Below the pieces are notes generated by a model that did no database searches, was not told the origin of the DNA, and worked only from the letters and a program-made list of their open reading frames with translations. Shown piece after piece: positions 16,162-58,450 of a stretch of DNA of 64,000 nucleotides (positions are counted from its first letter, which is position 1; each line of letters starts with the position of its first letter). The position numbers were made by a program, and so were the translations under genes. Location of the stretch: assembly GCA_964360585.1 (NCBI GenBank), contig CAYHXC010000001.1:21907-85906 (forward strand). Direction: 5' to 3'. The DNA comes from an uncultured Candidatus Saccharibacteria bacterium (GTDB lineage: Bacteria > Patescibacteriota > Minisyncoccia > UBA6257 > 2-01-FULL-56-20).

Positions 16162-17184
16162 ATGCGTTTACCAGCAGAATGGGAATCTCACGAATGTACG
16201 TGGATGGGCTGGCCTCACCAGAAGAAGGGTTGGCCAGGACGATTTCAGGAAATGAAGTACGTCTTCGGACTCATGGCCTTTATTCTCACGAGACAGTGCG
16301 GAGAAAAAATTAGAATTCTGGTTCTCGATTCGGACCATAAAACAGAAGCTGAACGGATACTGAAAAGCATGGATGCTGATCTTGACATGATCTCCTTCCA
16401 TGCGATCGAAACCGATCGTTCCTGGCTGCGAGATACAGCACCAATCTTCGTCGAAGATCAGGAAAGGAAACTCGTTGGTCTTGACTTCCTCTTCAACGGT
16501 TGGAATAGGTATTCCAATTTCCAACTGGATAATGCCGCCAAAATCCAGATAGCGAAGATTGCCCAAGCGATCCACCGCGAACCACGACTTGGAAGCCAGC
16601 GGGTTATCCTCGAAGGCGGCGCGATTGATGTCAATGAAAGAAGCGCCCTCCTCACCACCGAAGAATGCCTCTTGGCGGGAAAAACGGCGCGACATCCCGA
16701 CTGGACGAAAGATCAGTGGGAAGTAGTCTTCGAAACCTACTTTGGCACAACGGAAACCATCTGGCTGAAGTTCGGCATTCGAGGCGACGATACTGGAGGA
16801 CACATTGATGATCTGGCGCGTTTTACCAGCGCTGATCAGATCGTTACACTCGATCCGAAGTCAGCTAAACATGAGCAGGATTTCCACGCTCTCACAGCTA
16901 ATCTGGAAGTCCTATCCAATACCGTGTACAACATCGTGAAGCTTCCAATGCCTGATCCGGTGATCTACCAAGGACAACAACTGCCTGCGAGCTACTGCAA
17001 TTTCTACATCGGTAATGAGGCGGTGATTGTTCCGGTCTTCAACGACCCGAATGATTACATTGCTCTGGGAATCCTGACGGAAATCTTCGATGAGCGCCGG
17101 GTAATTCCGTTCGATTGTCGAGCGCTCGTATGGGGCTACGGCGCAGTCCACTGCGCCTTGATGCAGCAACCGAAAATTATCTGA
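16162..17184 (+). CDS. aguA: Agmatine deiminase / Porphyromonas-type peptidyl-arginine deiminase family
   Basis: Start taken at MRLPAEWESHECTWMGWPH, preceded by aaagga. C-terminal GAVHCALMQQ is the catalytic Cys motif of AguA. Confidence 0.7.
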   Translation: MRLPAEWESHECTWMGWPHQKKGWPGRFQEMKYVFGLMAFILTRQCGEKIRILVLDSDHKTEAERILKSMDADLDMISFHAIETDRSWLRDTAPIFVEDQERKLVGLDFLFNGWNRYSNFQLDNAAKIQIAKIAQAIHREPRLGSQRVILEGGAIDVNERSALLTTEECLLAGKTARHPDWTKDQWEVVFETYFGTTETIWLKFGIRGDDTGGHIDDLARFTSADQIVTLDPKSAKHEQDFHALTANLEVLSNTVYNIVKLPMPDPVIYQGQQLPASYCNFYIGNEAVIVPVFNDPNDYIALGILTEIFDERRVIPFDCRALVWGYGAVHCALMQQPKII

Positions 17185-17191
17185 CGTTCCA

Positions 17192-17222
17192 AGCGACTTT
17201 AATACGGTCGCTTTTTTATTTT
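17192..17222 (+). terminator. Terminator hairpin (agcgac tttaatacg gtcgct + T-run)
   Basis: Directly after the aguA stop. Confidence 0.5.
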
Positions 17223-17242
17223 CTCTATATTACCAAAACAAA

Positions 17243-17268
17243 ACACCGGCTTTCGCCGGTGTTTTGCA
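17243..17268. terminator. Bidirectional terminator (aaaacaccggc tttc gccggtgtttt)
   Basis: 11-bp perfect stem. It lies just 3' of the rnpB P1 3' strand on the minus strand. Confidence 0.6.
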
Positions 17269-17292
17269 GTCATTCTATAAGCGGGATTCTGT

Positions 17293-17389
17293 CCCCCTGT
17301 CCTTAATCGTGAATCAGAGATTTCCTTCCTATGACCAATCAACTTAATTTTATTGACTGGCTCTCCATTCAAGACTAAGGACAGGGGGG
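17293..17389. mobile_element. Internally deleted derivative of the GIY-YIG element (14-bp TIR CCCCCTGTCCTTAA / TTAAGGACAGGGGG), inserted between the P2 and P4 3' strands of rnpB
   Basis: Same TIR as the pair flanking the GIY-YIG ORF at 17998-18282. The ends are similar (CCUUAGUC... / ...CGAUUAAGG). Only a ~9-codon ORF remains. Confidence 0.45.
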
Positions 17390-17530
17390 ACGATCATTTA
17401 TCTGGGCCGGCGATTACTCGCCGGCTCAAGTCCTTCGACTTCGCTCAGGATAAACCCAACTGAAATCGATGAGACTATGCGGCACAAACCAATGCTCCGC
17501 ATTGGAAATACAAAAGAAATCATAAACTCG

Positions 17531-17638
17531 AAGCACGAAACTCGAAACAATACTGAATGTCCAAAGTTCAAAGGTTTGAAACATTGGGAATTTGTTCGCC
17601 AGTTGGCGAATTGTTTCGGATTTCGATATTCGGATTTC
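17531..17638. repeat. IVS-like stem-loop inside rnpB, homologous to the stem flanking the four-helix-bundle cassette at 19720-20175
   Basis: Arms cgaagcacgaaactcgaaaca and tgtttcggatttcgatattcgg pair with each other. Both arms match the flanks at 19720-19750 and 20145-20172. Confidence 0.4.
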
Positions 17639-17997
17639 AAATTTCATCTTGTGCTTCCCAGTGCGAAGCACTGGAGTACGACCTTGCACTCAAGTAAGGA
17701 TTTAGCCGTTTCACCCTTCGACTTCGCTCAGGGTAAACCCTTCGATTTTACTCGAAAGCCCCAAGTTTATATGAAGGATCACCCCACTTCGCATAAAGCT
17801 CCGCGGGGCGGTTATATCCTTGCGGATATAACCGTCTCTGCTCGCACCTCTATCCTTCCCTTCAACTACGTTCAGGACTAGTAATCCTGAGTTACATCGA
17901 AGGATTGCGGACGGTGGCCGTTAACCACTACCGACTACGAAACTCTTTTAAGGATTAATCAGTCTTAAAAGAATCCCGTGAGTGTCCCGACTTTCCT

Positions 17998-18282
17998 CCC
18001 CCTGCCCTTAATCTTCGTTACTCGCCACAATACGTTTCTTTAATTCGCCGTAAGCTGTACTGAATTTTTTGAGCTGTCTTTCTCGTTTCTGAGCATCAGA
18101 CTTTTCGAGATAAGCTTCGTAATAAATCAGTACCCAGGGTTCTCGATATCTTGTTGCCGGAGATAAACCATTCTGATGCTCAGTAAATCTCCTTCGCAAA
18201 TTATCCGTACAACCAATGTACAGCTTACGATCTTTTTTACTTTTCAAAACGTACGTGTAGAACATCGACTAAGGGCGGGGGG
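17998..18282. mobile_element. GIY-YIG endonuclease element bounded by 14-bp inverted repeats, occupying the P3 position of rnpB
   Basis: TIR tccccctgcccttaa (17998-18011) and ctaagggcgggggg (18269-18282). The ORF start lies 3 nt inside one repeat and the stop codon lies within the other. Confidence 0.5.
18008..18265 (-). CDS. GIY-YIG nuclease family protein (small standalone, YhbQ/UPF0213-like)
   Basis: 85 aa, MFYTYVLKSKKDRKLYIGCTDNLRRRFTEHQNG...KSDAQKRERQLKK. Contains the GIY...YIG motif, the conserved Arg, and the Glu of the catalytic core. Confidence 0.75.
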   Translation of the reverse strand: MFYTYVLKSKKDRKLYIGCTDNLRRRFTEHQNGLSPATRYREPWVLIYYEAYLEKSDAQKRERQLKKFSTAYGELKKRIVASNED

Positions 18283-18344
18283 CGATCGTCCGAATGACCA
18301 TTTAATAGTCTAACATTTTCACACTTTTGTCAATCCAAGAGAAA

Positions 18345-18370
18345 TAAAAAAGCCAGGAGATGTCTCCTGG
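18345..18370 (-). terminator. Terminator hairpin (agccaggagacatctcctggct) downstream of the 18377..19057 gene
   Basis: 10-bp perfect stem flanked by A/T runs. Confidence 0.55.
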
Positions 18371-18376
18371 CTTGAG

Positions 18377-19057
18377 CTACTGAAAAGTCTTCTGAATTGC
18401 GAGGTTGCCCCCATATCCCATGGGGAAGCTGATATAGGCTTCCGGGAGTAGTGAAAATCCTTTGCCAAGTGGAACTTGCAAACCACCGCTCACTTTCCCT
18501 CCGGGTAAGGCTTGATGGAAATCTTTACTCATTGGCTGACTCGTACCAGCGGCTCCGCCTTCACCCACCGAGACATCGCCACTGAAACCACCTTCAACAT
18601 CAAATCCACCTACACCGATCCGAAAAACGAAGGCTAACTGTCGCCACAGTCTCAAGGTCACTTCAGGACCAATAGTCCCTCCGATCATCCGAGCTTTTGT
18701 TCTTCCTTCGGCTTTTCCGTCGGGAAAAGGAGAGTACTTGGCCGCTGTTTCCCTATCCTTCCACGCCCCATCCCCCGAGACACTGCCGTAGGAAGCTTCA
18801 ACAACTCCGGCTAGGGCCCACCAGTTTCCCTGGAGCACGTAGGCTTTCACTCGAACCGAAGCCGAGTACCCCGACATCGTCGGATACTCATCAATCTTTG
18901 CGATGTCGAAGAACCAGTTAGGGATTTGATTCCACGAGGCATCGATCCCAACACTGAATCTCCCTCCGGCAATCCGTTCCACAACTTGGTTACTGTCCGC
19001 GTGAGCTTGCGAGGAGAGCAAGGCAACCATCAGCCCAACCACCAACCATTGCTTCAT
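18377..19057 (-). CDS. Hypothetical secreted Gly-rich protein with signal peptide (possible beta-barrel/porin-like), GC-rich
   Basis: 226 aa. Signal peptide MKQWLVVGLMVALLSSQAHA, alternating Gly/aromatic pattern, C-terminal aromatic residue. GC content is clearly above the window average. Confidence 0.4.
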   Translation of the reverse strand: MKQWLVVGLMVALLSSQAHADSNQVVERIAGGRFSVGIDASWNQIPNWFFDIAKIDEYPTMSGYSASVRVKAYVLQGNWWALAGVVEASYGSVSGDGAWKDRETAAKYSPFPDGKAEGRTKARMIGGTIGPEVTLRLWRQLAFVFRIGVGGFDVEGGFSGDVSVGEGGAAGTSQPMSKDFHQALPGGKVSGGLQVPLGKGFSLLPEAYISFPMGYGGNLAIQKTFQ

Positions 19058-19278: not shown

Positions 19279-19707
19279 CTAACGCTGCGCATCCAATGCC
19301 TGGTTCACCATCTTATCGGCTACTTTATTAAGCTCGCGCGGAATGTGTTTGAACGTTACCTTCTTAAAATCCAAACGTAAATTCCAGATCTCCATAAAAT
19401 ACAGTTGGAGTTTTTCGTCTTCGATCTTATAGATCGCATTCATCTGTTTCACGATCAACTCCGAGTCCATGCGCACCTCGACTTCCGTCTGCTTCGCTTT
19501 CGTTTTCCCGAGAAGTTGTTTGGCTTTTTTAAGCGCAAAAACTAAAGCCAAGTATTCTGCTTGATTATTAGTCATCACCCCCAAATACTCGCCGTATTCT
19601 TTTCCGCCTACCACCGCGCCCAAAGCCGCCGGCCCGGGATTACCTCTACTGCCACCGTCTGTGTAAATTATGAGCTTCGATTCAGTATTAAATAGTTGAG
19701 AGTTCAT
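19279..19707 (-). CDS. rnhA: Ribonuclease HI
   Basis: 142 aa, IYTDGGSRGNPGPAALGAV...NNQAEYLALVFAL...; RNase H type 1 catalytic DEDD residues present. Confidence 0.85.
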   Translation of the reverse strand: MNSQLFNTESKLIIYTDGGSRGNPGPAALGAVVGGKEYGEYLGVMTNNQAEYLALVFALKKAKQLLGKTKAKQTEVEVRMDSELIVKQMNAIYKIEDEKLQLYFMEIWNLRLDFKKVTFKHIPRELNKVADKMVNQALDAQR

Positions 19708-19719
19708 AATTTATAAATT

Positions 19720-20175
19720 CGAAATACTAATATCGAAATCCGAAACAATGTTTAAATTCATAAATTCAAATATCATTTTGATTTCTGCAAGATAGCTCCA
19801 AAAATCATCATTAATTCAGTTGATTCTTGGACTAAATCATTCCACTCTTTGACAAGAATAGTATCTATCTGAGTTTCTAACAAATTCAGCCAATATCTGC
19901 TTTCTTTTGCTTCTTTTCGAGAAATTTTAATACGCATCAAAAAATCTTTCTTGCTTAAAGCCTCATTCGCCTCTATATAGTTTGCACCAACAGATCCCGA
20001 AGAACGAACTAATTGCTTAATATCATCAATACTGGCAATACCTTTCGGCAGCTTCTTAACAAAACTTCTTACTTGTTTTGCAAAATCAAATGTTCTTTTC
20101 TCAAGATCATATTGTTTTGTATTTCGTACTTCGCTCATTTGAATTTGTTTCGATTTTCGTGCTTCGAATTTCGTA
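19720..20175. mobile_element. IVS-like stem-loop cassette carrying a four-helix-bundle gene
   Basis: Flanks cgaaatactaatatcgaaatccgaaacaatg (19720-19750) and tgtttcgattttcgtgcttcgaatttcg (20145-20172) are mutually complementary. Both are homologous to the stem inside rnpB (17531-17638). Confidence 0.4.
19773..20138 (-). CDS. Four-helix-bundle protein (23S rRNA intervening-sequence protein family, TIGR02436-like)
   Basis: 121 aa, ...GSVGANYIEANEALSKKDFLMRIKISRKEAKESRYWL... is the family signature. Confidence 0.75.
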   Translation of the reverse strand: MSEVRNTKQYDLEKRTFDFAKQVRSFVKKLPKGIASIDDIKQLVRSSGSVGANYIEANEALSKKDFLMRIKISRKEAKESRYWLNLLETQIDTILVKEWNDLVQESTELMMIFGAILQKSK

Positions 20176-57126: not shown

Positions 57127-58224
57127 TTACTGTGAAAGGCCTTGGCTAATGGTGTATATCGGCGTGATGATCGAAAGCGCCACGAAACCAACCACGATAC
57201 CCATGACAAGCAGAATAAGCGGCTCAAGCAACACGGTGACATTTTTTAATGATGTCTCGACTTCTTCCGAATAGTAATTAGCTAAATAGGACAAGTTCTC
57301 TTCGAGATTTCCGGTATTCTCCCCTACCTCAACCATAGCCGAGAGAATGGGTGGAAATATTTTTTTCTTCTTCATGAGATACTCGGAGAAAGCGCTGCCT
57401 TTTTTAATTTCTTCAGCCGCTTCTTTCAAGGCCACCTCATATACTTTATTTTCAAAGGTGTTGCTGACAATAAGAATCGATTCGACAATTTTGATGCCGC
57501 TCCGTAAAAGGATGGCGAGAATGCGACTCATATTCGTAACGTTCACATAAATGGCGAGCGAAGAAATAACCGGAAGCATCAGTATAAAATGATCGAAGAC
57601 CAACTTGACGGGCGGAAGGCGAAGAAGTGCTCGCCAAGCAACTACGATCATAATGACGAGTCCGATGACCAACCACCAGTAGCTACTAATGAATCCGAGA
57701 ACGGCGATCAGTATGCGGGTAGCAAGCGGTAACTCAACATCAAAGTTAGTAAATGTAGGCAGGAGTTTTGGAAAAACAAAGAAGGCCAAGAAACCGCTCA
57801 CGCCCATCGTCATCACGAAAAGAATGGCGGGATAGACCATGGCCGAGCGGACCTTGTTTCGCAGATCCTTGGACTTCTTCAGTTCTTCGGCGAGATAGAG
57901 CAGATTCGGCCCCAATGTTCCGCTCCGCTCACCAACCTCAACGACGCTGATAAAAAAGTCGCCGAAGATTCTGTGAAAACGGCGCAAACTGCCGGCCATC
58001 GTCTGGCCGTTATTCACATCTAAAATCAGCTGATCAATAATGATCTGAAATTTCTTGGTGGTCGTCTGACGACGCAAAATTTTCAAACTTTCAAAGAGCG
58101 GCAAACCGGCTTTAACCATAATCGCCAGATGTCGCGCGAAGTTGATCTTTTCCTGAATTGGAACACGCCCCCGAACGATCGGCGTGTGTCCGAGTTTCAC
58201 CGGATCTTTTTTAAAAAGAATCAT
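57127..58224 (-). CDS. pilC: Type IV pilus assembly platform protein PilC (GspF family)
   Basis: 365 aa, two GspF repeats, 3 TM helices. Confidence 0.8.
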   Translation of the reverse strand: MILFKKDPVKLGHTPIVRGRVPIQEKINFARHLAIMVKAGLPLFESLKILRRQTTTKKFQIIIDQLILDVNNGQTMAGSLRRFHRIFGDFFISVVEVGERSGTLGPNLLYLAEELKKSKDLRNKVRSAMVYPAILFVMTMGVSGFLAFFVFPKLLPTFTNFDVELPLATRILIAVLGFISSYWWLVIGLVIMIVVAWRALLRLPPVKLVFDHFILMLPVISSLAIYVNVTNMSRILAILLRSGIKIVESILIVSNTFENKVYEVALKEAAEEIKKGSAFSEYLMKKKKIFPPILSAMVEVGENTGNLEENLSYLANYYSEEVETSLKNVTVLLEPLILLVMGIVVGFVALSIITPIYTISQGLSQ

Positions 58225-58450
58225 TTATCCTCCAAACTTTTTGTAATTTTTTAATACACGTAGCAAATAATTTTTCCCCCCAACCAGATTTCAAAAATTT
58301 CTCTCTTAAAGCGGCGTCGTGCTTATTTAAATACGACTCAATATAAATCAATTTAAAAGGACGTCTAGACTGGGTGGAAAAAACTTTTCCAGAATTATGC
58401 ATAATAAGTCGTCGCTTTAAATTATTAGAACCCATCTTAAAAATAGGCAC
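58211..58450 (-). pseudogene. GIY-YIG nuclease remnant (N-terminal motif region replaced by MITE-B sequence)
   Basis: Residues ...NNLKRRLIMHNSGK...RRPFKLIYIESYLNKHDAALREKFLKSGW align with the middle and C-terminal parts of YhbQ-like GIY-YIG proteins. The first 8 codons are encoded by the MITE TIR. Confidence 0.4.

What the first reader, a model, noticed from the sequence alone, without database searches (positions are those of the whole stretch)
17264..18303. RNase P RNA gene expanded to ~1 kb by three nested insertions, including a complete GIY-YIG endonuclease ORF in the P3 position
Reading the minus strand by eye, every conserved pairing of bacterial type-A RNase P RNA is present in order:
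- P1: AUGGUCAUUC / GAAUGACU.
- P2: GGACGAUC / GAUCGUCC.
- P4: AGUCGGGA / UCCCGCU, with the single bulged U.
- Signatures: GGAGGAAAGUC, the P9-like GUGGUUAACGGCCAC, AAGGGUGAAACGG, and UUGAGCCGGCGAGUAAUCGCCGGCCCAGAUAAAUGA (P15-P18).

A normal rnpB is 350-400 nt; this one is ~1040 nt. The extra length comes from three insertions:
(i) A 285-bp element at the P3 position, bounded by 14-bp inverted repeats that themselves form the stem, with an 85-aa GIY-YIG ORF in the loop.
(ii) A 97-bp hairpin with the same inverted repeats, inserted between the P2 and P4 3' strands.
(iii) About 270 nt of extra sequence in the specificity domain, containing an IVS-like stem and three copies of a dispersed 25-nt motif.

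I do not know of a protein-coding gene nested in an RNase P RNA helix. The insertions might be excised post-transcriptionally in the way rRNA intervening sequences are, or the gene might be decaying and replaced by a protein-only RNase P.
Basis: partly seen in the sequence, partly recalled or inferred. Interest (0 to 1): 0.85.

Follow-up and report, generated by a model that had tools for sequence, protein, structure and literature searches.

The report
RNase P RNA gene hosting a nuclease gene
This is a real RNase P ribozyme gene stretched from about 400 to about 1,040 bases by six hairpin-shaped insertions, one of which carries a complete, conserved nuclease gene at the tip of helix P3; the same arrangement recurs in other ultra-small (Patescibacteria) bacteria and I found no published description of it.

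Summary
On the minus strand, 18301-17267 is a type-A RNase P RNA gene with P1, P2, P4 (bulged U), P5 and P18 and the conserved core sequences intact. Rfam misses it (18.8 bits). A profile built from nine Rfam-supported relatives hits it in three collinear pieces. After in-silico removal of the extra segments it gives one full-length hit (222.9 bits, E 5.6e-68).

There are six expansions (639 nt), not three. All sit at helix tips or junctions, and all fold better on the rnpB sense strand.

The P3 expansion is a 285-nt cassette: 16-nt inverted arms enclosing an 85-codon stand-alone GIY-YIG gene under purifying selection. The same cassette sits in rnpB P3 of three other Patescibacteria lineages; in one of them the rnpB scores 164 bits, above Rfam's threshold. 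A 64%-identical copy sits at the tip of 23S rRNA helix 63.

Carriers and non-carriers are interleaved among close rnpB relatives. This fits a mobile, intervening-sequence-like element of the kind already reported in CPR rRNA genes, now found in rnpB.

The pseudogene reading is not supported. Whether the coding loop stays in the mature RNA or is cut out is untested.

The parts
18307..18333 (-). Promoter-like sequence for rnpB: TTGACA (18333-18328), a 15-nt spacer, then TGnTAGACT (18315-18307). It ends 6 nt before the start of P1.
   Evidence: Read directly. The strict consensus scan did not flag it, so this is inferred. Equivalent TTGACA/TTGACC boxes precede P1 in L127 and L124. The terminator of the upstream gene lies at 18373-18350.
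17267..18301 (-). RNase P RNA gene (rnpB), type A with a reduced, CPR-style specificity domain. About 1,035 nt, made up of roughly 400 nt of core plus 639 nt of expansions.
   Evidence: nhmmer with a profile of 9 Rfam-supported relatives gives three collinear hits (E 4.1e-32, 5.8e-16, 0.014). After removal of the six segments it gives one full-length hit of 222.9 bits, E 5.6e-68. blastn to L121, L122 and L089; these are RF00010 hits at E 6e-15 to 2e-27. Covariation test.
18292..18300 (-). P1 5' strand, UGGUCAUUC. Pairs with 17275-17267.
   Evidence: 8 of 9 pairs appear in the unconstrained MFE of the full 1,042-nt RNA, mean pair probability 0.91. P1 forms in all 10 homologues with different sequences.
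18284..18291 (-). P2 5' strand, GGACGAUC. Pairs with 17395-17388.
   Evidence: In one search, the seven inner pairs (helix 2) have 98.6% of cells paired, and 6 of the 7 pairs show changes on both sides. The outermost pair (18291 with 17388) aligns out of register and is paired in 30% of cells. P2 is absent from the unconstrained MFE (0 of 8 pairs, mean probability 0.03).
18267..18282 (-). 5' arm of the P3 cassette, CCCCCCGCCCUUAGUC.
   Evidence: Pairs with 18013-17998 (15 of 16 positions, including one G.U). Mean pair probability 0.75. The arm stem is recovered with compensatory changes across five elements.
18008..18265 (-). 85-codon gene for a stand-alone GIY-YIG nuclease (NCBI MEK7187722.1). 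It fills the P3 loop exactly: the AUG is 1 nt after the 5' arm and the UAA stop lies inside the 3' arm.
   Evidence: Pfam PF01541, E 1.5e-16. Nearest solved structures are UPF0213 proteins 1ywl and 1zg2. pN 0.15-0.29 against pS of at least 0.74 in comparisons among the five RNA-gene copies. Homologues at 62-74% identity sit at the same place in L124, L125 and L127. Accession.
17998..18013 (-). 3' arm of the P3 cassette, GAUUAAGGGCAGGGGG. It contains the stop codon.
   Evidence: UAA here corresponds to UGA in L124 and L125, with the matching U-to-C change in the 5' arm.
17985..17993 (-). P4 5' strand, AAG[U]CGGGA (bulged U at 17990), within GGAGGAAAGUCGGGAC. Pairs with 17286-17279.
   Evidence: helix 4: 97.5% of cells paired; G-C/C-G and A-U/G-C exchanges among homologues.
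17856..17904 (-). Expansion I-2: a 49-nt hairpin inserted after the GCAA loop of the GUCC/GGAU hairpin (P9 position).
   Evidence: Absent from L122, L121, L089, L124 and L125. MFE -20.1 kcal/mol (z -4.1) on the sense strand against -13.6 on the antisense strand.
17717..17740 (-). Expansion I-3: 24 nt, GGGUUUACCCUGAGCGAAGUCGAA, just before GGGUGAAACGG.
   Evidence: The motif GGGUUUAYCCUGAGCGA also occurs in the helix-45 insertion of the 23S rRNA in L140.
17506..17674 (-). Expansion I-4: 169 nt that lengthen the P15-P17 hairpin into a long irregular rod.
   Evidence: Relatives have 17-40 nt here. Region 17480-17681 folds at -78.2 kcal/mol (z -8.2) on the sense strand against -64.3 (z -5.1) on the antisense strand.
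17430..17478 (-). Expansion I-5: a 49-nt hairpin between GUGCCGC and UUGAGCC. It belongs to the same family as I-2.
   Evidence: MFE -17.4 (z -3.3) on the sense strand against -10.5 on the antisense strand.
17406..17425 (-). P18 hairpin, GCCGGCGA-GUAA-UCGCCGGC.
   Evidence: 8 of 8 pairs in the MFE, pair probability 0.99. Covariation (helices 8 and 9).
17388..17395 (-). P2 3' strand, GAUCGUCC.
   Evidence: Position 17388 is shared with the first C of I-6, so P2 has 7 or 8 pairs.
17293..17388 (-). Expansion I-6: a 96-nt hairpin at the P19 position (between the 3' strands of P2 and P4). Its 16-nt arms are near-copies of the P3 arms. It contains no ORF.
   Evidence: MFE -51.0 (z -8.4) on the sense strand against -35.8 on the antisense strand. 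The short ORFs lying across I-4 and I-6 have no Pfam match that passes threshold.
17279..17286 (-). P4 3' strand, UCCCGCUU, within ACAGAAUCCCGCUUA.
17267..17275 (-). P1 3' strand, GAAUGACUG.
17233..17266 (-). Terminator-like hairpin, CAAAACACCGGC-GAAA-GCCGGUGUUUUG, followed by a U-rich tail.
   Evidence: Perfect 12-nt inverted repeat (I9). The stricter terminator scan did not list it.

Best explanation
What it is. The locus is the organism's working RNase P RNA gene. Its peripheral loops and junctions have been colonised by hairpin-forming insertion sequences of the kind already known from rRNA genes of Patescibacteria (CPR).

The P3 cassette. The largest insertion is a 285-nt cassette at the tip of P3. 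Two 16-nt inverted arms prolong P3. Between them, with no spare sequence, lies an 85-codon gene for a minimal GIY-YIG nuclease.

Shown here:
- The RNase P core is intact and covaries with its homologues.
- The ORF is conserved under purifying selection.
- The same cassette occupies the same site in three other lineages, and a related one occupies a 23S rRNA helix tip.
- Carriers and non-carriers are interleaved among close rnpB relatives.
- All expansions are more stable as rnpB-sense RNA than as antisense RNA.

Inferred:
- The cassette has no room for its own promoter, because the AUG is 36 nt from the P1 start. It is therefore transcribed as part of the rnpB precursor.
- The nuclease is translated from the nascent transcript, while the 5' arm is still unpaired. 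This genome rarely uses Shine-Dalgarno sequences.
- Once the 3' arm is made, the arms pair. This rebuilds P3, buries the start-proximal sequence and the stop codon, and pushes the coding region out as a side branch. The ribozyme core folds normally.
- The branch is then either tolerated in the mature RNA or removed by cleavage within the arm duplex, without ligation, as for rRNA intervening sequences.
- The patchy distribution implies gain by horizontal spread, repeated loss, or both. The nuclease is the obvious candidate to drive spread, but that is untested.
For: Identity as rnpB:
- Profile hits and the with/without-insertion test.
- Relatives L122, L089 and L121 are RF00010 hits at E 2e-27, 1e-25 and 6e-15.
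- 88.6% of cells paired against 35-44% in the slid controls; 26 pairs with changes on both sides; 0 of 500 shuffles reached the observed values.
- P1 forms in all ten homologues.
- The full-length MFE recovers P1, the P3 arms, the P19 arms, P18 and each inserted hairpin.

The ORF:
- Pfam GIY-YIG.
- pN 0.15-0.29 against pS of at least 0.74.

Recurrence:
- P0002, P0003 and P0005 (62-74% identical) all lie in rnpB P3, downstream of an RNase H gene.
- The L127 rnpB scores 164.1 bits, above the gathering threshold.
- P0005 was found on 18 contigs from several sources.

Link to rRNA insertions:
- P0004 is a 290-nt insertion at the tip of helix 63 of a 23S rRNA gene.
- PMC11270868 reports that GIY-YIG ORFs in CPR rRNA genes lie in non-intron insertions, mostly at the tops or bases of stem-loops.

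Patchiness: rnpB core identity is WIN-L122 (no ORF) 75%, WIN-L124 (ORF) 74%, L122-L124 79%, WIN-L127 (ORF) 55%.

RNA-level pairing:
- Sense-versus-antisense folding energies.
- A G.U pair is kept in the arms.
- The stop codon changes UAA to UGA together with a U-to-C change in the opposite arm.

Shine-Dalgarno motif: found upstream of only 6 of 41 long ORFs.
Against: - No expression or processing data were available. Translation from the nascent transcript, retention or excision of the loop, and nuclease-driven mobility are all inference.
- Rfam RF00010 does not recognise the window gene (18.8 bits; no hit on 17669-18013). I could not run cmscan on the edited sequence.
- The protein is a bare 85-aa catalytic domain, without the DNA-binding domain of characterised GIY-YIG homing enzymes.
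- PMC11270868 judged the rRNA GIY-YIG insertions unlikely to spread by homing.
- Only four distinct rnpB carriers were seen.
- Several close protein homologues sit in ordinary intergenic contexts.
- Only 64 kb of the genome is visible, so a second, compact rnpB cannot be excluded.
Confidence: 0.75

Rival explanations
1. Domesticated partner. The GIY-YIG protein is no longer (or never was) a selfish nuclease. Instead it works with RNase P, for example by binding the arm hairpin as an RNA chaperone or extra subunit. The ORF-less hairpins with identical arms (P19 position in the window; P15-17 in L127) would be additional binding sites.
For: - Strong purifying selection on the ORF.
- Conserved position in four lineages.
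- In two lineages, a second hairpin inside the same rnpB carries lineage-specific copies of the P3 arms: a near-copy in the window and an exact copy in L127. No arm copies were found elsewhere in the 64-kb window.
Against: - Close homologues sit in a 23S rRNA helix, next to tRNA genes and in ordinary intergenic DNA.
- Close rnpB relatives lack the ORF.
- L124 and L125 have no second arm hairpin.
- A truncated paralogue lies elsewhere in the window, as expected for a selfish family.
Confidence: 0.1
2. Ancient passenger with a housekeeping role. The cassette entered P3 once in a common ancestor and has been lost many times. The nuclease has an ordinary cellular function (UPF0213/YhbQ-like). Its position merely exploits a strong promoter, and it has no current mobility.
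For: - Nearest solved relatives are stand-alone UPF0213 proteins of unknown function.
- The protein has no DNA-binding domain.
- PMC11270868 considered the rRNA GIY-YIG insertions to be outside homing-type spread.
- The arms differ between lineages, as expected for long vertical descent.
Against: - The L127 rnpB core is only 48-55% identical to the WIN clade, about as far from it as the ORF-less Saccharibacteria L074 (53-59%). Vertical descent therefore needs many independent losses.
- The same protein subfamily occurs in a different RNA gene (23S rRNA helix 63).
- Arm hairpins have been copied within rnpB.
Confidence: 0.12
3. Decaying pseudogene. rnpB has been disabled by insertions, and RNase P activity is supplied by a protein-only enzyme (HARP/PRORP type) or by a second rnpB outside the window.
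For: - Rfam does not recognise the gene.
- It carries six insertions.
- No rnpA was seen in the 64 kb.
Against: - Every conserved core element is intact and in order.
- All insertions lie at helix tips or junctions and fold as independent hairpins.
- Sense-strand G.U pairing is maintained.
- The same ORF-in-P3 layout occurs in L127, whose rnpB is canonical by Rfam's own threshold.
- Compact relatives from this clade also score below Rfam gathering, and the literature says the same of CPR RNase P RNAs (PMC8172020).
Confidence: 0.03

Closest known systems
Non-intron insertion sequences encoding GIY-YIG proteins in rRNA genes of CPR/Patescibacteria (Brown et al. 2015, as cited in Tsurumaki et al. 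2024; Tsurumaki et al. 2024, PMC11270868)
   Same: - Same protein family: a 64%-identical copy is such an insertion at the tip of 23S rRNA helix 63 in L140.
- No group I or group II intron signature.
- Located at the tip of a stem-loop of an essential structural RNA.
- Sporadic distribution.
   Different: - The host gene is rnpB, which that paper does not mention (0 occurrences of 'RNase P').
- The cassette sits at one fixed site (P3) in four lineages.
- ORF-less hairpins with the same arms lie elsewhere in the same gene.
Intervening sequences (IVS) of bacterial 23S rRNA genes (helices 25 and 45; Salmonella, Leptospira, Coxiella). They are excised by RNase III without ligation, and some carry an ORF (Pfam 23S_rRNA_IVP).
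   Same: - Insertion at a helix tip.
- Flanking inverted repeats form an extended stem.
- An optional small ORF in the loop.
- Patchy phylogenetic distribution.
- The host RNA stays functional.
   Different: - The host is RNase P RNA.
- The ORF is a GIY-YIG nuclease, not the four-helix IVP protein.
- Excision is untested here. If it occurs it would give a two-piece RNase P RNA, which to my knowledge has only been produced artificially (fragment reconstitution of M1 RNA; recalled from memory).
Diverged RNase P RNAs of CPR bacteria (Lui, Nielsen and Arkin 2021, PMC8172020)
   Same: - Below-threshold Rfam scores.
- Missing P13, P14, P16 and P17.
- Large helix extensions, such as an extended P15.
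- A need for manual refolding.
   Different: That work describes extended or missing helices only. It reports no protein-coding insert and nothing near 1 kb.
GIY-YIG homing endonucleases of group I introns and free-standing phage genes (I-TevI, SegA-G)
   Same: - GIY-YIG catalytic domain (weak NCBIfam match to grpIintron_endo, 23.8 bits, below cut-off).
- Association with an insertion in a conserved gene.
- Patchy distribution.
   Different: - Only 85 aa, with no linker or DNA-binding domain.
- No intron ribozyme around it: Rfam found no intron match in the region.
- Sequence-wise it is closer to UPF0213/YhbQ-like stand-alone domains.

Membership tests
Bacterial RNase P RNA, type A (Rfam RF00010) | P1-P2-P3-P4 core, with the long-range P4 pseudoknot and its single bulged U | tested here: met
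   Strands located. P2 (seven inner pairs) has 98.6% and P4 97.5% of cells paired across 10 homologues, with compensatory changes. P1 forms in all ten.
Bacterial RNase P RNA, type A (Rfam RF00010) | Universally conserved core sequences: GAGGAAAGUC (CR-I), AGAU(A/G)AAUG (CR-IV) and ACAGAAnCCnGCUUA (CR-V) | tested here: met
   These are invariant columns in alignment A1. They read directly as GGAGGAAAGUCGGGAC, CAGAUAAAUGA and ACAGAAUCCCGCUUA.
Bacterial RNase P RNA, type A (Rfam RF00010) | Covariance-model score at or above the family's gathering threshold (100 bits) | tested here: not met
   No hit at gathering. 18.8 bits, E 0.0014, for the 3' part. No hit for 17669-18013. Compact relatives also fall short (55-92 bits). 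The model cannot span 1 kb.
   cmscan cannot be given an edited sequence, and a full-length custom CM exceeds the calibration limit. Substitute test: a profile HMM of 9 Rfam-supported relatives gives 222.9 bits, E 5.6e-68, full length, on the edited window, against three separate hits on the native one.
Bacterial RNase P RNA, type A (Rfam RF00010) | Catalytic activity on pre-tRNA | not testable with these tools
   Needs in vitro transcription and a cleavage assay.
IVS-like / CPR-type non-intron insertion in a structural RNA gene | Sits at the tip of a host helix and is flanked by inverted repeats that extend that helix | tested here: met
   16-nt arms at 18282-18267 and 18013-17998 continue P3. 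The arm stem is recovered with compensatory changes in five elements.
IVS-like / CPR-type non-intron insertion in a structural RNA gene | No self-splicing intron structure | tested here: met
   No group I or II intron match in 17150-18400 even at E up to 10. As a positive control, a group I intron was detected elsewhere in L140.
IVS-like / CPR-type non-intron insertion in a structural RNA gene | Sporadic presence among close relatives | tested here: met
   ORF-carrying and ORF-less rnpB genes are interleaved by core identity.
IVS-like / CPR-type non-intron insertion in a structural RNA gene | Excised from the transcript by RNase III without ligation, leaving a fragmented mature RNA | not testable with these tools
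   Needs RNA-seq end mapping or a Northern blot.
GIY-YIG nuclease superfamily (Pfam PF01541) | GIY-YIG catalytic domain with the conserved Tyr, Tyr-Ile-Gly, Arg and Glu positions | tested here: met
   PF01541 at 60.9 bits, E 1.5e-16. The segments FYxYxL, LYIG, RR and YYEA are conserved in all 8 aligned homologues.
GIY-YIG homing endonuclease (I-TevI type) | A C-terminal DNA-binding domain joined by a linker, giving long-target specificity | tested here: not met
   The protein has 85 residues, and the GIY-YIG domain covers residues 1-68. Nearest structures are the 96-107-aa UPF0213 proteins.
GIY-YIG homing endonuclease (I-TevI type) | Cleaves the insert-less allele and promotes its own copying | not testable with these tools
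   Needs a nuclease assay on P3 DNA of an ORF-less allele such as L122.

The most novel reading that the evidence does not exclude
The coding loop is cut out of the precursor within the arm duplex and the ends are not rejoined. This clade would then run on a naturally two-piece RNase P RNA: a piece of about 30 nt carrying the 5' strands of P1, P2 and P3, held by base pairing to the large 3' piece. The released loop would serve as a near-leaderless mRNA for the nuclease. The alternative is that the loop stays in, so the mature ribozyme is also an mRNA. If the gene works at all, one of these two must be true. I found no description of either for a bacterial RNase P RNA.
Probability: 0.35. Interest if true: 0.85.

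Novelty: new variant of a known kind. Interest (0 to 1): 0.72.

Why it matters
[quoted passage not shown] Bacterial versions are 330-450 nt, and none is described as carrying a protein gene.
- Here a conserved ORF sits inside helix P3 in several lineages. The ribozyme must therefore tolerate a 250-nt coding branch, work as two non-covalent pieces, or double as an mRNA. Each of these can be tested directly with metatranscriptomes or in vitro assays.
- The finding extends the 'insertions in rRNA genes' peculiarity of CPR bacteria to a third class of essential RNA. That suggests a family of small cassettes specialised for helix tips of structural RNA genes.
- It has a practical consequence. Annotation pipelines call the nuclease as an ordinary gene and miss rnpB entirely. 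This contributes to 'missing RNase P RNA' in CPR genomes and to faulty completeness checks.

Tried and rejected
1. **Rfam on the native sequence.** No gathering-level hit. Evalue mode gave only 18.8 bits. The sub-stretch 17669-18013 gave nothing. The S-domain is too divergent and the model cannot bridge the insertions.
2. **Custom covariance model.** A full-length model of the roughly 400-nt trimmed RNA exceeds the 400-column and calibration limits, so I used nhmmer and explicit pair counting instead.
3. **The genome-contig scan.** Only L089 and a few CPR loci were useful.
4. **The metagenome scan.** The 22-mer gave only 3 loci, all ORF-less.
5. **The 97-nt hairpin as a deletion derivative of the ORF cassette.** Similarity stops after the 16-nt arms, so this is not shown.
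6. **I-4 as an insertion between duplicated hairpins.** Folding shows that the two 'copies' pair with each other as the base of one long rod. That reading is rejected.
7. **Other ORFs across the insertions** (87, 80, 134, 57 and 63 aa). No Pfam family matched above its cut-off; the best were E 0.076 and 0.2.
8. **Protein homologues P0007, P0013, P0019, P0022, P0035 and P0060.** All lie in ordinary intergenic contexts, not RNA genes. The rnpB location is therefore confined to the closest subclade.
9. **rnpA search.** A search with E. coli RnpA (sequence recalled from memory) found nothing in the window. This is uninformative.
10. **Literature.** Seven searches found no report of an ORF in bacterial rnpB. 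Hits combining rnpB with endonucleases were fungal mitochondrial genome papers.
Full report
**1. The observation**

| Element | Sequence and coordinates |
|---|---|
| P1 | UGGUCAUUC 18300-18292 with GAAUGACUG 17275-17267 |
| P2 | GGACGAUC 18291-18284 with GAUCGUCC 17395-17388 |
| P4 | AAG[U]CGGGA 17993-17985 with UCCCGCUU 17286-17279 |
| P5 | CACUCA with UGAGUG |
| UAAC-loop hairpin | 17928-17914 |
| P18 | 17425-17406 |

The core sequences GGAGGAAAGUC, CAGAUAAAUGA and ACAGAAUCCCGCUUA are all present.

The unit is bracketed as follows:
- The terminator of the upstream gene lies at 18373-18350.
- A TTGACA / TGnTAGACT promoter-like pair lies at 18333-18307. I read this directly; the strict scan did not flag it.
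- A perfect 12-bp hairpin with a U-rich tail lies at 17266-17233.

The 85-codon ORF at 18265-18008 is a GIY-YIG domain (PF01541, E 1.5e-16). The 16-nt arms occur only at their four positions in the 64 kb.

**2. Is it RNase P RNA?**

Rfam alone says no:
- Nothing at gathering threshold.
- 18.8 bits, E 0.0014, for 17262-17564.
- Nothing for the S-domain stretch 17669-18013.

Exact-pattern scans then brought in three compact relatives:

| Locus | Source | Length | RF00010 score |
|---|---|---|---|
| L089 | Saccharibacteria chromosome | 410 nt | 86.8 bits, E 1e-25 |
| L122 | groundwater metagenome | 356 nt | 91.9 bits, E 2e-27 |
| L121 | metagenome | 421 nt | 55.4 bits, E 6e-15 |

All three align to the window in collinear blocks with blastn E-values down to 4e-19.

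I built a profile HMM from nine Rfam-supported homologues, excluding the window, and searched with it:
- On the native window it finds three collinear minus-strand hits: E 4.1e-32, 5.8e-16 and 0.014.
- After in-silico removal of the extra segments it finds a single hit. That hit covers profile positions 3-379 of 383 at 222.9 bits, E 5.6e-68.

Pair counting on a 10-sequence alignment covered P2, the base of P3, P4, P5, two hairpins and P18:
- 88.6% of cells are paired, against 35-44% when the partners are slid by 1-3 columns.
- 26 pairs carry changes on both sides, against 6-12 in the slid controls.
- 0 of 500 shuffles reach any observed measure.

The structure was derived from the window sequence, which inflates 'percent paired' but does not inflate the compensatory changes. 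P1 was out of register in that alignment. Tested separately, it forms in all ten sequences with different sequences.

The unconstrained MFE of the full 1,042-nt RNA recovers the following:
- P1, with mean pair probability 0.91.
- The P3 arms (0.75), the P19 arms (0.86) and P18 (0.99).
- Each inserted hairpin as a separate branch.
- It does not recover P2 (0 of 8 pairs).

Below-threshold Rfam scores and manual refolding are the published norm for CPR RNase P RNAs (PMC8172020).

**3. Anatomy of the extra 639 nt**

Alignment to the compact relatives gives six expansions, not three.

| Name | Coordinates | Size | Position |
|---|---|---|---|
| I-1 | 18266-18014 | 253 nt | ORF, between the P3 arms |
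| I-2 | 17904-17856 | 49 nt | hairpin in the GCAA loop at the P9 position |
| I-3 | 17740-17717 | 24 nt | before GGGUGAAACGG |
| I-4 | 17674-17506 | 169 nt | turns the P15-17 hairpin into a long rod |
| I-5 | 17478-17430 | 49 nt | hairpin between P15 and P18 |
| I-6 | 17388-17293 | 96 nt | hairpin at the P19 position |

The expansions fall into families:
- I-2, I-5 and I-3 share the CCUGAGCGAAGUCGAAGG motif.
- I-6 shares its 16-nt arms with P3.

Each hairpin is clearly more stable as rnpB-sense RNA than as antisense RNA (kcal/mol):

| Expansion | Sense | Antisense |
|---|---|---|
| I-2 | -20.1 | -13.6 |
| I-5 | -17.4 | -10.5 |
| I-6 | -51.0 | -35.8 |
| I-4 region | -78.2 | -64.3 |

This points to G.U pairs maintained in the transcript. 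All six expansions lie at helix tips or junctions, and none interrupts a core strand.

**4. The P3 cassette recurs**

The window protein is NCBI MEK7187722.1, from a 'Patescibacteria group bacterium'. Its four closest homologues were looked up in their contigs.

Three of them lie exactly as in the window: downstream of an RNase H gene, with the 5' strands of P1, P2 and P3 upstream of the ORF and GGAGGAAAGUC immediately downstream.
- P0002, 72% identical, in L124.
- P0003, 74% identical, in L125.
- P0005, 63% identical, in L127-L130. It was found on 18 contigs, including GCA_002328955.1.

Rfam scores the part of these rnpB genes that lies downstream of the ORF:
- L127: 164.1 bits, above the gathering threshold.
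- L125: 43.6 bits, E 9e-11.
- L124: 33.9 bits, E 2e-7.

The arms differ between lineages but always pair:
- CCCCCUGCCCUCAGUC in L124 and L125.
- CCCCCCACCACUUUUUAUG in L127.

The stop codon lies inside the 3' arm. It is UAA in the window and UGA in L124 and L125, and the opposite arm changes U to C to match.

Among the five RNA-gene copies (the four rnpB carriers and L140), synonymous sites are saturated (pS at least 0.74) while pN is 0.15-0.29. The GIY-YIG signature residues are kept in all eight aligned homologues. This is a working protein gene, not a relic.

**5. What kind of element**

The fourth close homologue, P0004 (64% identical, in L140), is a 290-nt insertion at the tip of helix 63 of a 23S rRNA gene. 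It has its own complementary arms, GCCCCCACUUUCUA and UAGAAAGUGGGGGC.

More distant homologues (48-66% identical) lie in other contexts:
- Some are in ordinary intergenic DNA, several with inverted arms that again contain the stop codon.
- One lies upstream of a tRNA-Thr gene.

The literature already records the rRNA version of this element. In CPR rRNA genes, GIY-YIG ORFs occur in insertions that are neither group I nor group II introns, mostly at the tops or bases of stem-loops. RNase III-type IVS processing has been suggested for such insertions (PMC11270868). That paper does not mention RNase P.

No intron model matches the window region. The nearest solved structures are stand-alone UPF0213 proteins. 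The protein has no DNA-binding domain, so I do not file it as an I-TevI-type homing enzyme.

rnpB core identities interleave carriers and non-carriers:

| Pair | ORF status | Core identity |
|---|---|---|
| WIN-L122 | ORF+ / ORF- | 75% |
| WIN-L124 | ORF+ / ORF+ | 74% |
| L122-L124 | ORF- / ORF+ | 79% |
| WIN-L127 | ORF+ / ORF+ | 55% |

The cassette has therefore been gained or lost repeatedly.

**6. Mechanism**

The following steps are inference from the anatomy.
- The AUG lies 36 nt from the start of P1, which leaves no room for a separate promoter. The ORF must therefore be transcribed as part of the rnpB precursor.
- There is no Shine-Dalgarno sequence, but only 6 of 41 long ORFs in the window have one.
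- The partner strands of the 5' leader are made 270-1,030 nt later. A ribosome can therefore load on the nascent RNA.
- Once the 3' arm appears, the arms pair. P3 is rebuilt and the coding region becomes a side branch.
- Whether the branch is kept or cut out cannot be decided from sequence.

**7. Rivals**

- Pseudogene with a protein-only RNase P: very unlikely, for the reasons given in sections 2-4.
- Domestication as an RNase P partner: possible but weak. The one supporting observation is the ORF-less hairpin with lineage-specific copies of the P3 arms, at the P19 position in the window and at P15-17 in L127. This remains unexplained.
- A single ancient insertion with many losses, and a housekeeping nuclease: cannot be excluded.
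- Assembly artefact: excluded by the independent assemblies.

**8. Verdict**

This is a genuine and unusual RNase P RNA gene. The element type is known from CPR rRNA genes, but rnpB as its host, the fixed P3 site and the 1-kb size are new as far as seven literature searches could show. I rate it a new variant of a known kind, with interest 0.72.

Noticed in passing
window 19773-20138 (-): [quoted passage not shown] This family is otherwise known from ORFs inside rRNA intervening sequences, including those of CPR (PMC11270868).
   Followed up: no
window 17717-17740 and 17432-17457; L140 28-44: The 17-nt motif GGGUUUAYCCUGAGCGA in the small rnpB hairpins also occurs in an insertion in helix 45 of the L140 23S rRNA. 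Helix 45 is the classical IVS site. There it is followed by the same GUCGAAGGGUG. It is the only match among the 143 loci held at that point, which suggests a second, ORF-less hairpin module shared between structural RNA genes.
   Followed up: partly
L127 3492-3525: An ORF-less hairpin has 16-nt arms identical to the L127 P3 arms. It sits in the P15-17 region of the same rnpB. This parallels the window's P19-position hairpin but lies at a different site. It is unexplained; possible causes are element footprints, gene conversion, or a binding site.
   Followed up: partly
window 58211-58450 (-): A second, N-terminally truncated GIY-YIG paralogue (44% identity over residues 20-74, lacking the GIY and YIG motifs) lies between PilB-like and PilC-like genes (my reading of the ORF translations). 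It is probably a decaying copy of the same family.
   Followed up: partly
window 18049-18060 and 18218-18229: A perfect 12-nt inverted repeat lies inside the ORF (CGUAAGCUGUAC / GUACAGCUUACG), spanning codons for KLY and TAY. It forms a long-range helix in the full-length MFE and is largely kept in L124 and L125. It may compact the coding loop.
   Followed up: partly
L135 1481-1770; L136 1481-1760; L142 1440-1760: Intergenic copies of the GIY-YIG gene are also bounded by inverted arms that contain the stop codon. In L136 and L142 these are flanked by the same short sequence (TTGAC) on both sides, which could be a target-site duplication.
   Followed up: partly
L131 1440-1850: A GIY-YIG copy lies about 100 nt upstream of a tRNA-Thr gene. 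About 18 nt (GGCGGACGGGCTCAGCTG) is repeated on both sides of the ORF.
   Followed up: partly
L140 1050-1355: The same 23S rRNA fragment that carries the GIY-YIG insertion also has a group I intron-like match (RF00028, 39.3 bits, E 4.8e-07, below gathering).
   Followed up: no
window 19279-19707 (-); L124 2465-2893; L125 1006-1443; L127 2482-2916: An RNase H gene lies upstream of rnpB in all four ORF-carrying loci. The window has an extra 226-aa ORF of unknown family in between (18377-19057).
   Followed up: no
whole window: Shine-Dalgarno-like motifs precede only 6 of 41 long ORFs, against a 9% background. This is based on a crude first-ATG gene model.
   Followed up: no
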